IMG/VR virus record: IMGVR_UViG_3300047557_002769
Coordinates: 64,001 to 128,000 of that record
Direction: 5' to 3' (one strand)
Source of the DNA: a virus
Length of the DNA: 64,000 nt
Translations under genes and position numbers: made by a program
Part shown: positions 5,540 to 39,807 of the stretch, one piece after another
Layout of the letters: every line of letters starts with the position of its first letter
Position numbering within the stretch: position 1 is the stretch's first letter
Notes under the pieces: generated by a model
Seen by the model: the letters and a program-made list of their open reading frames with translations, nothing else
The model's database searches: none
What the model was told of the DNA's origin: nothing

Positions 5540-5940
5540 CCGTGTTTTTCATGTGCTTGTATTCTATCTTGAAGGTAGTTAGATATTCCAACTTCACCTT
5601 CTTTTTCTGCTTCTTGATAAGCGATTAATAGTGAGGCTCTTAATTTAGTATTTTCTTTTTCTAAATTCGAAAGCATCGCAAGCGCACTTGGTATAGTATC
5701 TGTCTCTTCAATACTAGTTAGTTCTTTAAATCTGGCTAAAGTACCAGGCGCATAAGAATCTAAAGTTCTGATTAATTCAGCAATTGCATCAACCGAACTG
5801 TGTACGTCCTCATAAAGTTCACCCATAAATTCATGATACTGAGCGAAGTTAGGACCTTCAACGTTCCAGTGGTAGTACTGAGCCTTTAAGTAAAACGTAA
5901 AGGCATCTGCTAAAGTAGTCTTTAATGTATCAACTAGCAT
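5512..5940 (-). CDS. dps: Dps family ferritin-like DNA protection protein
   Basis: HWNVEGPNFAQYHEFMGELY...DAIAELIRTL...HEKHGWML. Confidence 0.92.
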   Translation of the reverse strand: MLVDTLKTTLADAFTFYLKAQYYHWNVEGPNFAQYHEFMGELYEDVHSSVDAIAELIRTLDSYAPGTLARFKELTSIEETDTIPSALAMLSNLEKENTKLRASLLIAYQEAEKEGEVGISNYLQDRIQAHEKHGWMLRSFLK

Positions 5941-37151: not shown

Positions 37152-37227
37152 TGGTGGAAGATAGGGGAATCGAACCCCTGACTCCGACTTGCAAGGCCGG
37201 CGTGTTCCCAATTAGCACCAATCCCCC
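37152..37227 (-). tRNA. tRNA-Ala(TGC)
   Basis: CT-TGC-AA, G3:U70, ACCA. Confidence 0.92.
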
Positions 37228-37231
37228 ATTA

Positions 37232-37313
37232 CCATATTGAAGCACACTAGCACCACAGCAACCGGCTCAATGGCGGGGAGTCGAACCCACTTTGTTAATG
37301 CACTTCAATATGG
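37232..37313 (-). repeat. CCA-anchored stem cassette A
   Basis: CCATATTGAAGTGCATT...AGTGTGCTTCAATATGG terminal stem. Confidence 0.8.
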
Positions 37314-37528
37314 CCCCAGCCCCTACACTGGGTACATATTGTCTTCTGAGTCGGCAGAAGATTTTATCTCCTGTTGTTCCGCGTTTCTCGGACGACGATC
37401 CTCAGGCCTAGACATCCGTATGCGAAGTCCACCATCACTCGCATATTTTTAATGACGGGGCTTTCACCCGCCTCGGTATTGTTTGCTCTGCTAACCACTA
37501 GGGAATGTGGCAACAAGAGTACCGGGAC
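37311..37528 (-). ncRNA. ~218-nt structured RNA ending in CCA
   Basis: Ends pair (CCCGGT/GCTGGG-G-CCA); several hairpins; no convincing coding ORF. Confidence 0.5.
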
Positions 37529-37540
37529 TAATTGTTAATC

Positions 37541-37615
37541 TGGTGCATCGTGAGAGGATTGAACTCCCGACCTTGGCCTTGTAAGGGCCCTGCTCTACCG
37601 CTGAGCTAACGATGC
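37541..37615 (-). tRNA. tRNA-Val(TAC)
   Basis: CT-TAC-AA, ACCA. Confidence 0.9.
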
Positions 37616-37621
37616 GTAATA

Positions 37622-37714
37622 TGGTGGGTGTCCACGGAGTCGAACCGCGAATGTTTACCACGAGGGACCGGATTTACAGTCCGGTGCAGCACACGCCTTA
37701 GCTGCAAGACACCC
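37622..37714 (-). tRNA. tRNA-Tyr(GTA)
   Basis: CT-GTA-AA, long variable arm, ACCA. Confidence 0.88.
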
Positions 37715-37722
37715 ATAAAACT

Positions 37723-37799
37723 TGGCTGACCAGGTAGGGATCGAACCCACGACATCGTGATTAACAGTCACGCGCAACTACCAACTGTGCTACTGGTCA
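37723..37799 (-). tRNA. tRNA-Asn(GTT)
   Basis: CT-GTT-AA, GCCA. Confidence 0.92.
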
Positions 37800-37807
37800 A
37801 AAAACTC

Positions 37808-37883
37808 TGGAGCGGGTAATCGGTTTCGAACCGATGGCCTTAACTTTGGCAAAGTTACGCTCTACCAACTGAGCTATACCCGC
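37808..37883 (-). tRNA. tRNA-Gly(GCC)
   Basis: TT-GCC-AA, TCCA. Confidence 0.92.
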
Positions 37884-37887
37884 TTAA

Positions 37888-37998
37888 CCATATTGAAACA
37901 CACTCGACGGAATCGAACCGTCCACCTCTGCTCCATACGGGGCAAGGCTGTATCCAGTCAGTAGGCTTGTACTTTGCCTTGAATGTGCTTCAATATGG
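37888..37998 (-). repeat. CCA-anchored stem cassette B
   Basis: CCATATTGAAGCACATTC...GAGTGTGTTTCAATATGG; interior has D-loop-like and T-arm hairpins. Confidence 0.8.
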
Positions 37999-38130
37999 TC
38001 TCGGGTTTGCACCGAGATCACCGACTAAACGGCTTTCGCTAGTGATTCACTCATATTACTTGCAGGTCATATGAGGCTCTATGCGATGCTTAAAGACTGA
38101 TTAAAAGGGCCTGCATTAGTTACCAGTCTC
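37996..38130 (-). ncRNA. ~135-nt structured RNA ending in hairpin-CCA
   Basis: 3' TCTCGG-TGCAAAC-CCGAGA-CCA; internal hairpins GACTG/CAGTC, CTCATAT/ATATGAG, ATCACT/GGTGAT. Confidence 0.5.
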
Positions 38131-38135
38131 AAAAA

Positions 38136-38219
38136 CCATATTGAAACATACTGCACTAGTCAATTGAATACAGTTGACCAGTCTTCCTTATCAGTGAAGC
38201 GCAATACGTTTCAATATGG
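38136..38219 (-). repeat. CCA-anchored stem cassette C
   Basis: CCATATTGAAACGTATTGC...GCAGTATGTTTCAATATGG. Confidence 0.8.
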
Positions 38220-38293
38220 TGCCCCAGAGGAGACTCGAACTCCTAAAATTTGGCTTCTAAGACCAACACGTATACCAATTCCGTCACCAGGGC
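38217..38293 (-). tRNA. tRNA-Leu(TAG) with short variable loop
   Basis: CT-TAG-AA, Leu-type D arm, only 5-nt variable region, ACCA. Confidence 0.85.
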
Positions 38294-38332
38294 ATTATAA
38301 CAATTATATATTATCTTATTTTTAAAATCAAC

Positions 38333-38407
38333 TGGCGGTCCCAAGGAGTAACGATCTCCTTCTTCATGCGTGACAGGCATGCGTGCGTCCATGAACACTT
38401 TGAGACC
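38333..38407 (-). tRNA. tRNA-Asp(GTC)
   Basis: CT-GTC-AC; T-loop ATCGTTA; GCCA. Confidence 0.88.
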
Positions 38408-38414
38408 TTATGAA

Positions 38415-38645
38415 TTTGTTAAGCGCCAGCCACCACATACATCGGCTGCATTATCCGCAAATTATCCCGGGTGCGGTTATGATCGGATAAGCTCTTTTAC
38501 AGATAACTTATCTTCACCTAGGGTACGTCACAATAATAATCAGCAGGCGGGTGCCATGGTACGTCCTTGAACCGTCACCTTTTTACTATGCTAGATCTTG
38601 CAAAATCATCACACAGTGCCTTTTATTAGAGACACACTTAACAAA
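38415..38645 (-). ncRNA. ~230-nt stem-enclosed structured RNA
   Basis: TTTGTTAAGTGT/GCGCTTAACAAA closing stem; internal hairpins; between tRNA-Glu and tRNA-Asp. Confidence 0.5.
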
Positions 38646-38648
38646 ACT

Positions 38649-38723
38649 TGGTACTCCTGAAGGGTTTCGATCCCTCTTTTCCGCCTTGAAAGGGCAGCGT
38701 CCTAGCCAGTAGACGACAGGAGC
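38649..38723 (-). tRNA. tRNA-Glu(TTC)
   Basis: CT-TTC-AA; T-loop ATCGAAA; CCA. Confidence 0.88.
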
Positions 38724-38730
38724 ATTATTC

Positions 38731-38804
38731 TGGCATCCCGGGAGGGACTCGAACCCCCACAAACGGTTTTGGAGACCGCTATGCTGCCATTACACCACCG
38801 AGAT
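38731..38804 (-). tRNA. tRNA-Trp(CCA)
   Basis: CT-CCA-AA, GCCA. Confidence 0.9.
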
Positions 38805-38805
38805 A

Positions 38806-39117
38806 TTAATAACCGTTTGCGAATACGGTTTTTTGAGTAACTTCTTGAACAAAGGCACCGCATGTATACGTATCACCTTGTCTTGCGACGTTACGACCGT
38901 TCGCAAATACATTAGGGCTAAACGAGTTGATAGTTGTTGAATAAACAGGTGGGCAGTGCGTGTGTGGAGTATTCGTATCATCTTTACGATGTATTCCTAC
39001 CCCTGCAACAAACACATTCGTAGAACAACTTAAAGTTCTAATAAGCCCCGGAACAATACATACCGGGTGTCCCGTGTTAACAATATCAACCTCGTCGCCT
39101 CTTGCAATTAATGGCAT
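38806..39117 (-). CDS. PAAR-type spike tip protein (gp5.4-like)
   Basis: MPLIARGD..TGH..STNVF..G.GIHRKDD..H.H..SPNVFANG..VARQGD..CG..VFANG; AGGAGG SD before ATG 39117. Confidence 0.85.
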   Translation of the reverse strand: MPLIARGDEVDIVNTGHPVCIVPGLIRTLSCSTNVFVAGVGIHRKDDTNTPHTHCPPVYSTTINSFSPNVFANGRNVARQGDTYTCGAFVQEVTQKTVFANGY

Positions 39118-39149
39118 ATTATCCTCCTTTTTATATTTAGGATAATAAC

Positions 39150-39227
39150 TGGAGTATCGGGTCAGATTCGAACTGACGGTTTTACGGATTTGCAATCCGT
39201 TGCCTTTGACCGCTCGGCCACCGATAC
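39150..39227 (-). tRNA. tRNA-Cys(GCA)
   Basis: TT-GCA-AA, U73, CCA. Confidence 0.92.
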
Positions 39228-39231
39228 ACTA

Positions 39232-39354
39232 CCATATTGAAACACACTGCACTATCTAGATGCTTAAGTAGCTGTCACCGGCCGGTTTGTATCTACTATC
39301 TACACCCTACGCTCTCTTGGCCAAGAGAATGGCTTGCAATGTGCTTCAATATGG
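39232..39354 (-). repeat. CCA-anchored stem cassette D
   Basis: CCATATTGAAGCACATTGCA...TGCAGTGTGTTTCAATATGG. Confidence 0.8.
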
Positions 39355-39425
39355 TAGGGCTGGAGGGTAACGATCCCTCTTCTACGGATTAAAAGTCCGT
39401 TGCTTCACCTTAAAGCTTCAACCCC
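39352..39425 (-). tRNA. tRNA-Lys(TTT)
   Basis: CT-TTT-AA; T-loop ATCGTTA; ACCA. Confidence 0.88.
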
Positions 39426-39778: not shown

Positions 39779-39807
39779 ATTATAAGCTATTTCTTAACTT
39801 TGTGCAA
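39779..39807 (-). promoter_or_regulatory. Distal promoter (P1) driving the leader peptide and attenuator
   Basis: TTGCAC-17 nt-TATAAT, same class as the early-region promoters. Confidence 0.8.

What the first reader, a model, noticed from the sequence alone, without database searches (positions are those of the whole stretch)
37232..39354. Four CCA-anchored stem cassettes with constant ends and variable structured cargo inside the tRNA array
Seen: 37232-37313, 37888-37998, 38136-38219 and 39232-39354 all start CCATATTGAA and end TTCAATATGG, forming 17-20 bp closing stems around unrelated ~45-85 nt interiors. In every case the first three bases are the CCA end of the preceding RNA. All deviations from complementarity are G:U pairs on the minus strand (A:C on the plus strand), which indicates selection on the transcript's structure rather than DNA inverted repeats. 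Cassettes A and B carry T-arm motifs (GGTTCGA), and B also has a D-loop-like hairpin. Inference: these could be RNase III-type processing stems releasing small tRNA-mimic or decoy RNAs, a device that sequesters the CCA end to time maturation, or a tRNA-3'-targeting mini-element.
Basis: partly seen in the sequence, partly recalled or inferred. Interest (0 to 1): 0.8.

Follow-up and report, generated by a model that had tools for sequence, protein, structure and literature searches.

The report
RNase III-type wrappers for phage RNAs
Between this phage's tRNA genes lie four small RNA modules, each closed by a helix that carries the known recognition features of the host enzyme RNase III, so the phage probably uses that enzyme to cut a swappable set of undescribed small RNAs out of its tRNA transcript; what those RNAs do is not shown.

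Summary
The four cassettes are real: 19-23 bp stems on the tRNA (minus) strand whose only non-Watson-Crick pairs are G-U. They belong to a widespread family (473 distinct cassettes, 303 loci, 269 cargo clusters; no Rfam match); this scan found it before on other DNA. What I add is a mechanism test. The stem fits E. coli RNase III determinants: pairing is 95-100% for 10 bp inside the predicted cut, 84% at bp 11, then falls to chance, with the distal-box U-G/U-A pairs at +9/+10. A profile built only from these cassettes ranks T7's RNase III site R1.1 first on T7's plus strand. The same half-stem closes the spacer of this phage's split tmRNA, where the predicted cut falls exactly at the CCA end. 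Cargo-free stems exist, and one homologous site carries about eight different cargos. CCA is dispensable and the discriminator base does not covary, so CCA sequestration and a DNA mini-element are poorly supported. Best reading (0.7): host RNase III releases 70-111 nt RNAs and frees the flanking tRNA ends. No cleavage, expression or cargo function is shown; only a minority of cargos are tRNA-like.

The parts
37231..37314 (-). Cassette A: 19-bp closing stem around 46 nt (weak T-arm + GCCA + hairpin). Predicted cuts 37307^37306 and 37237^37236; released RNA 70 nt
   Evidence: cargo homolog in L101; register
37886..38000 (-). Cassette B: 20-bp stem around a cloverleaf-like cargo with a 5-bp T-arm stacked on the stem. 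Predicted released RNA 37991-37893, 99 nt
   Evidence: 12-member family with compensatory pairs
38135..38220 (-). Cassette C: 23-bp stem starting on the ACCA of tRNA-Leu(TAG), two-hairpin cargo. Predicted released RNA 38212-38141, 72 nt
   Evidence: homolog in L089
39229..39357 (-). Cassette D: 23-bp stem starting on the ACCA of tRNA-Lys(TTT). Predicted released RNA 39347-39237, 111 nt
   Evidence: homologs L025, L378, L098
37311..37530 (-). Conserved ~220-nt structured non-tRNA element ending in hairpin + GCCA; supplies the CCA of cassette A. Homologous sites elsewhere carry other cargos or an empty stem
37996..38128 (-). ~130-nt non-tRNA element ending in a T-arm-like hairpin + ACCA; supplies the CCA of cassette B and lies downstream of C
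   Evidence: no homolog among fetched loci
38217..38293 (-). tRNA-Leu(TAG); its 3' ACCA is the first 4 nt of stem C
39352..39425 (-). tRNA-Lys(TTT); its 3' ACCA is inside stem D
37152..37227 (-). tRNA-Ala(TGC) downstream of A; predicted 9-nt leader after the 3' cut
37808..37883 (-). tRNA-Gly(GCC) downstream of B; predicted 9-nt leader
39150..39227 (-). tRNA-Cys(GCA) downstream of D; predicted 9-nt leader
39779..39806 (-). Sigma-70-like promoter match upstream of the array (a second at 39900-39872, an internal one at 38331-38303); consensus matches only

Best explanation
The constant stem is a processing signal for the host's RNase III in the polycistronic tRNA precursor. Predicted cuts: CCAUAUU^GAAR on the 5' arm and YUUCAA^UAUGG on the 3' arm (2-nt 3' overhang). 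One event would (i) leave the upstream RNA with CCA + UAUU for exonuclease trimming, (ii) give the downstream tRNA a 9-nt leader for RNase P, and (iii) release a 70-111 nt RNA whose ends are locked in an 11-bp helix. The interior is an exchangeable slot holding many unrelated structured RNAs; I think they most likely act as decoys or ligands for host proteins. Shown by comparison: the RNA helix, its fit to RNase III determinants, use of the same half-stem in tmRNA spacers, empty stems, cargo exchange. Inferred: cleavage, the enzyme's identity, stability of the product. Guessed: cargo function.
For: (1) Length rule: in 199 cassettes anchored only at positions -6..+3, pairing is 95-100% at +4..+10, 84% at +11, 55% at +12 and 31-44% (chance) beyond; same with one per cargo cluster. 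E. coli RNase III needs an 11-bp helix (PMC1540722). (2) Distal box: +9 is U-G in 168 and C-G in 21 of 199, +10 is U-A in 184; the paper reports U-A/U-G as optimal, with a stringent need for U-G. (3) Proximal box position 2 is A-U on both half-sites, as in vivo (PMC6212723). (4) The published weak consensus (PMC4357697) scores best at this register on all 8 arms, 9-13 of 16. (5) A profile built only from array cassettes ranks T7 R1.1 first on the T7 plus strand (site at nt 5887 per PMC8708148); 5 of the top 10 are T7 RNase III hairpins vs 0.56 with column-shuffled profiles, 9 of 500 reach 5 (the four positions other than R1.1 are from my own knowledge). (6) This genome's permuted tmRNA spacer (C1:48660-48722) and 99 other distinct phage tmRNA spacers carry the same half-stem starting directly after CCA, pairing 83-100% at +2..+11 and falling after +12: independent support for the register. 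(7) Cargo-free stems exist in arrays (L450, L451, L453, L438, L445) and in tmRNA spacers (L429, L430, L434, L436). (8) The site after the 220-nt element holds different cargos in L011, L018, L029, L051, L093, L094, L337 and an empty stem in L450; 14 of 99 tmRNA spacers share cargo words with array cassettes, about ten convincingly. (9) The complete genome encodes no RNase III, dsRBD, TROVE or CCA enzyme. (10) E. coli RNase III is reported to take part in T4 tRNA maturation (PMC4810235).
Against: No cleavage or RNA ends were observed. G-C at +1 (dominant in array cassettes) cuts minimal-substrate cleavage 14-fold without lowering binding, although E. coli's own 16S and 23S trailer cuts also begin with a G-C pair and tmRNA spacers mostly have A there. 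In vivo E. coli sites prefer G-C/C-G at the two overhang positions; here both are U-A. The outer helix is only 7-9 bp. The profile missed the true register on E. coli 16S and 23S stems and missed T7 R0.3, R1 and R4.7. Natural RNase III sites are degenerate (PMC3867540), so the near-invariant outer sequence needs a further cause (common descent, recombination, or a second binder). The determinants come from E. coli; the host is unknown. The consensus score alone is weak (52 genome positions score 13 or more). Cassettes were collected by fixed patterns from related phages.
Confidence: 0.7

Rival explanations
1. The stem is a binding handle rather than a cut site: either a cleavage-resistant RNase III sponge or a docking helix for another protein (Ro60/Y RNA-like).
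For: G-C at proximal-box position 4 uncouples binding from cleavage in E. coli; sequence is more invariant than RNase III needs; some cargos are tRNA-like.
Against: The outer half-site has A-U/U-A at that position; the tmRNA spacer is absent from mature tmRNA (PMC11915505) and must be removed, and it uses the same stem; no TROVE or dsRBD gene in the genome; YrlA scores 18 bits vs cut-off 69 and on other coordinates.
Confidence: 0.12
2. The stem marks a cut, but the enzyme is not canonical RNase III (Mini-III, an unrecognised phage nuclease, or RNase P plus exonucleases acting on the helix).
For: Misfits at +1 and the overhang positions; permuted tmRNA is described simply as cut by tRNA processing enzymes; two megabase, presumably bacterial, contigs have tmRNA spacers without the stem.
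Against: The distal-box U-G and the 11-bp boundary are RNase III features; T7 sites rank at the top; no RNase III-domain gene in the phage.
Confidence: 0.08
3. The 3' arm sequesters the upstream tRNA's NCCA end to delay maturation or shield it from CCA-targeting toxins.
For: 141 of 2957 CCA-ended tRNAs in the fetched loci are followed directly by a cassette, and the CCA is paired in the precursor.
Against: About 50 of 249 cassettes lack CCA, some with compensatory changes; in L123/L125/L126/L139 the tRNA's CCA lies outside the stem; no discriminator covariation (p 0.56); 19 different upstream tRNA types; TATT is simply the second commonest spacer after CCA.
Confidence: 0.05
4. A DNA-level mobile mini-element with terminal inverted repeats that targets tRNA 3' ends; the cargo is passive filler.
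For: Constant ends, variable occupancy, cargo found at different sites.
Against: G-U 333 vs A-C 35 on the transcribed strand; fixed U-G asymmetry at +9; no direct target-site duplication at the flanks; outer half is replaced by the tmRNA acceptor stem in tmRNA genes; cargo families show compensatory pairs. Recombination between constant ends may still be how cargos are swapped.
Confidence: 0.05

Closest known systems
Phage T7 RNase III processing signals (R1.1 and the minimal substrate uR1.1; PMC1540722, PMC8708148)
   Same: AAG at +2..+4, U-G and U-A distal box at +9/+10, 11-bp helix; the cassette profile finds R1.1 first on T7's plus strand.
   Different: T7 hairpins close with a short loop, lie before protein genes and are mostly cut once; here the loop is a 30-120 nt structured insert, the context is a tRNA array, and +1 is usually G-C.
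rRNA leader-trailer helices and 23S rRNA intervening sequences excised by RNase III (PMC8708148)
   Same: A helix formed by flanking arms, cut on both strands to release the enclosed stable RNA from a polycistronic tRNA-containing precursor.
   Different: Enclosed RNA is small and exchangeable; the arm sequence is shared among copies; the cassette profile does not recover the rRNA registers.
Intervening segment of permuted two-piece tmRNA genes (Rfam RF04321, RF01850; PMC11915505, PMC9004378)
   Same: The phage spacers are closed by the same inner half-stem and share cargos with array cassettes.
   Different: Described as a discarded segment; I found no report of an RNase III-type stem or conserved cargo there; two presumably bacterial examples lack the stem.
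T4 stable RNAs species 1 and 2 (rnaC, rnaD) in the T4 tRNA cluster
   Same: Non-tRNA stable RNAs in a T4-like tRNA array; RNase III is reported to act in T4 tRNA maturation (PMC4810235).
   Different: rnaC and rnaD are not closed by this stem; they resemble more the CCA-ended elements upstream of A and B.
Bacterial Y RNAs (YrlA, RF02553) with Ro60
   Same: Terminal stem plus, in family B, a tRNA-like domain with a T-arm.
   Different: No Rfam match at threshold, no Ro60 gene, most cargos not tRNA-like.

Membership tests
Bacterial RNase III processing site (E. coli type) | At least 11 bp of helix between cut and distal box | tested here: met
   Pairing 95-100% to +10, 84% at +11, chance from +13; window stems reach +11 or more except A, which pairs to +11 and then breaks
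Bacterial RNase III processing site (E. coli type) | Distal box U-A and U-G | tested here: met
   +9 U-G 168/199, +10 U-A 184/199; all four window cassettes have U-G at +9
Bacterial RNase III processing site (E. coli type) | A-U/U-A at proximal-box position 2, no G-C antideterminant | tested here: met
   Outer half A-U 104/113 when unconstrained; inner half A-U (fixed by search anchor, so not independent)
Bacterial RNase III processing site (E. coli type) | A-U/U-A next to the scissile bond; G-C preference at the two overhang positions in vivo | tested here: inconclusive
   Inner +1 is G-C (14-fold penalty in vitro) but so are E. coli 16S/23S trailer cuts; overhang positions are U-A, against the in vivo preference. 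These are preferences, not requirements
Bacterial RNase III processing site (E. coli type) | Cleavage with 2-nt 3' overhang, lost in rnc mutant | not testable with these tools
   Only assembled contigs of two weakly matching runs were available
YrlA / bacterial Y RNA | Match to RF02553 | tested here: not met
   18 bits vs gathering 69, E 2.6, over the B/tRNA-Gly boundary
YrlA / bacterial Y RNA | Ro60 (TROVE) gene in the genome | tested here: not met
tRNA | Cloverleaf recognised by ARAGORN/RF00005 with 3' CCA | tested here: not met
   No call on any cassette; predicted products end in YUUCAA
T4 rnaC/rnaD | Sequence or structural likeness | tested here: not met
   No cassette-type stem closes rnaC or rnaD; no BLAST match of cassettes B, C, D to INPHARED phages
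MITE-like DNA element | Strand-neutral terminal inverted repeats and target-site duplication | tested here: not met
   G-U 333 vs A-C 35; flanks show no direct repeat
Any Rfam family | Covariance-model match to a cassette | tested here: not met
   None in the window; none among the 150 listed hits on 20 cassette-rich loci, 26 weaker hits not displayed

The most novel reading that the evidence does not exclude
Aquatic T4-like phages use their tRNA and tmRNA precursors as a general expression platform: a standard RNase III wrapper releases a library of hundreds of exchangeable structured RNAs that act as counter-defence decoys or ligands (tRNA-shaped ones against tRNA-cutting toxins, others mimicking antitoxin or guide RNAs), swapped between phages like gene cassettes.
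Probability: 0.3. Interest if true: 0.85.

Novelty: new variant of a known kind. Interest (0 to 1): 0.66.

Why it matters
It gives a simple, testable rule for finding the ends of hundreds of undescribed phage small RNAs, and suggests a route by which phage two-piece tmRNA gets its CCA end in one cut. If the cargos are effectors, phage tRNA arrays hold a large pool of RNA counter-defence factors that protein-centred annotation misses, and the wrapper is a natural scaffold for expressing stable small RNAs in bacteria.

Tried and rejected
Sequencing runs: two RNA runs held 5% of the words; only contigs, mostly tRNAs of other organisms; no information on expression, ends or habitat. BLAST of cassettes B+C against phages (two chance hits, E 1-4) and plasmids (none), and D against phages (none): no antisense target or cultured match; A and D were not searched against plasmids. 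Cargo vs own genome: only T-arm words shared with tRNAs/tmRNA. The consensus score alone does not single out the sites genome-wide. The cassette profile failed on E. coli rRNA stems. The exact coincidence of predicted and known T7 cut positions is partly by construction, because I set the register from uR1.1; only the ranking is independent. The long closed element 38415-38640 scores about 1 with the profile and is not a family member. Eight hits in bacterial genome bins are all in metagenome-assembled genomes of mixed phyla; I did not use them for host assignment. A systematic survey of bacterial tmRNA spacers could not be run. Two papers on two-piece tmRNA were not held. Family D alignment with L370/L343/L339 is doubtful. 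Literature searches found no description of the family; subscription journals are not covered.

Full report
Setting. The window is part of a complete 163,234-bp phage genome with direct terminal repeats, T4-like by its DNA polymerase family and a PAAR gene. It carries 28 tRNA genes on the minus strand and, outside the window, a permuted tmRNA that passes the betaproteobacterial tmRNA model (98.9 bits, cut-off 84). That hints at a betaproteobacterial host but does not show it.

Observation. The 10-mer occurs only at their eight ends in the whole genome. On the minus strand the stems are 19-23 bp with 10 G-U pairs and no other deviation, and they fold far better than shuffles and better than the plus strand. 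C and D start on the CCA of tRNA-Leu and tRNA-Lys; A and B start on the NCCA of non-tRNA elements. No Rfam family matches.

Family. From the fetched loci I recovered 473 distinct cassettes in 303 loci, falling into 269 cargo clusters; this set includes tmRNA-type cassettes. Oriented by neighbouring tRNAs, the stems hold 333 G-U against 35 A-C, so selection is on RNA. Each window cargo has relatives elsewhere: A in L101, C in L089, D in L025/L378/L098, and B in a family of about twelve. In family B, 12 of 26 predicted pairs show compensatory change, including four in the T-arm and four in the third hairpin, on a rough alignment of related sequences. T-loop words are enriched (35 of 473 vs 1.65) but mark a minority. 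Earlier notes of this scan describe the same family in other genomes; I treated them as leads only.

What defines the stem. Anchoring on the inner half and leaving the outer half free shows the five positions outside the predicted cut about 94% conserved, while the first two letters of CCA vary with compensation, for example AGCATATT/AATATGCT and ATTATATT/AATATAAT. About a fifth of cassettes lack CCA, and in several the tRNA's CCA lies a few bases upstream of the stem. The discriminator does not covary with its partner. So CCA is borrowed when a tRNA is there, not required.

Fit to RNase III. I numbered positions from the cut given by the published weak consensus (PMC4357697), which scores best at one register on all eight arms. 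The minimal E. coli substrate needs an 11-bp helix, A-U/U-A at proximal position 2 and a U-A/U-G distal box (PMC1540722); my mapping of those boxes to +3 and +9/+10 uses the pair numbers in that paper and the T7 R1.1 sequence. With only -6..+3 fixed, pairing stays at 95-100% through +10, is 84% at +11 and reaches chance by +13; +9 is U-G in 168 of 199 and has G on the 3' arm in all but five; +10 is U-A in 184. As an outside test, a pair profile from array cassettes alone was run over T7: R1.1 came first on the plus strand (published at nt 5887, PMC8708148), and five of the top ten were T7 RNase III hairpins, against 0.56 for column-shuffled profiles, 9 of 500 reaching five (four of the five positions from my own knowledge). 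Misfits: +1 is G-C, a 14-fold catalytic penalty in vitro, though E. coli's rRNA trailer cuts also start on G-C (the 23S cut taken at +8, the review gives +7); the overhang positions are U-A where E. coli prefers G-C in vivo (PMC6212723); the profile misses the rRNA registers.

Independent support for the register. The inner-half scan also returned permuted tmRNA genes. In this genome the tmRNA spacer is a fifth cassette, and the half-stem begins on the base after CCA. In 99 distinct phage spacers pairing is 83-100% from +2 to +11 and falls after +12; +1 is mostly A (+1..+4 were constrained by the search pattern). The predicted cut therefore yields the mature tmRNA CCA end directly and a 2-nt leader on the other piece. 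About ten spacers clearly share cargo with array cassettes. The spacer is known to be absent from mature tmRNA (PMC11915505). Two megabase contigs, presumably bacterial, lack the stem, while several short contigs have it as a bare 11-13 bp hairpin.

Filled versus empty. Arrays also contain bare stems of 37-44 nt. L450 shares the last 45 nt of the element upstream of cassette A and has an empty stem there; the same site in seven other loci holds other cargos. The stem thus has a job without cargo, and cargo is exchanged at a fixed site.

Mechanism. The array is probably transcribed as a long minus-strand precursor (promoter-like matches at 39806 and 39900). Host RNase III, since the phage encodes none, would cut each stem twice, leaving CCA-UAUU on the upstream RNA (the same spacer as between tRNA-Ile and tRNA-Lys), a 9-nt leader on the downstream tRNA, and a 70, 99, 72 or 111-nt RNA with an 11-bp end-locking helix. 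RNase III is reported to act in T4 tRNA maturation (PMC4810235). Confidence 0.7 for the processing role. For cargo function I favour decoy or ligand roles against host proteins, because diversity is high between families and structure is kept within them, but nothing here tests it (about 0.3-0.4); regulation by base pairing or tolerated filler remain open. The near-invariance of the outer sequence is not explained by RNase III alone; recombination between constant ends is a plausible cause and would also swap cargos (inference).

Comparison. It works like T7 RNase III signals and rRNA leader-trailer helices, and passes the sequence-level tests I could run except two soft preferences; cleavage is untested, so membership is likely, not shown. 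It is not YrlA, tRNA, rnaC/rnaD or a MITE. I found no description in the searchable literature. Related stems occur in cultured phages BUCT-ZZ01 and, in the tmRNA spacer, Mendera, which makes the idea testable. Verdict: real, widespread, a new variant of a known processing device carrying undescribed RNAs; interest 0.66.

Noticed in passing
window:37063-37141 (-): 79-nt CCA-ended element between tRNA-Ala and tRNA-Pro with a 6-bp acceptor-like stem bearing G3-U70 and A73 (alanine identity) and three hairpins but no standard T-loop; not called by ARAGORN or Rfam; no homolog among fetched loci.
   Followed up: partly
window:37311-37530 (-): Conserved ~220-nt structured RNA ending in hairpin + GCCA; up to 15 loci match, and part matches an intergenic stretch of cultured Limnohabitans phage DC31 (E 6e-4).
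   Followed up: partly
window:38415-38640 (-): Another end-closed non-coding element after tRNA-Glu, with a different stem that does not fit the family profile; its 3' part has 7 homologous loci.
   Followed up: partly
window:38806-39117 (-): PAAR-motif gene embedded in the tRNA array (phrog_281, E 5e-14).
   Followed up: no
G000 C1:48424-48815 (-), locus L455: Permuted tmRNA whose spacer is a fifth cassette; tag ANDEQFLMAA.
   Followed up: yes
L133:8426-8490, L138:7984-8044, L128:9478-9537: Stems with the same inner half but a different outer arm, away from tRNAs; L133's matches an unannotated stretch of Cronobacter phage phiES15. Probably separate RNase III-type sites in temperate enterobacterial phages.
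   Followed up: partly
L152:413-480 and L170:175-250: tmRNA-type cassettes where the stem starts after CC rather than CCA, so the predicted product would need the last A added.
   Followed up: no
window:36448-36540 (-): Unusually long (93 nt) tRNA called Ile(TAT) by ARAGORN.
   Followed up: no
L327:3098-3343 (T4, upstream of its tRNA cluster): An 11-bp stem scoring 24.6 with the cassette profile encloses 222 nt; outer arms do not pair, may be chance.
   Followed up: no
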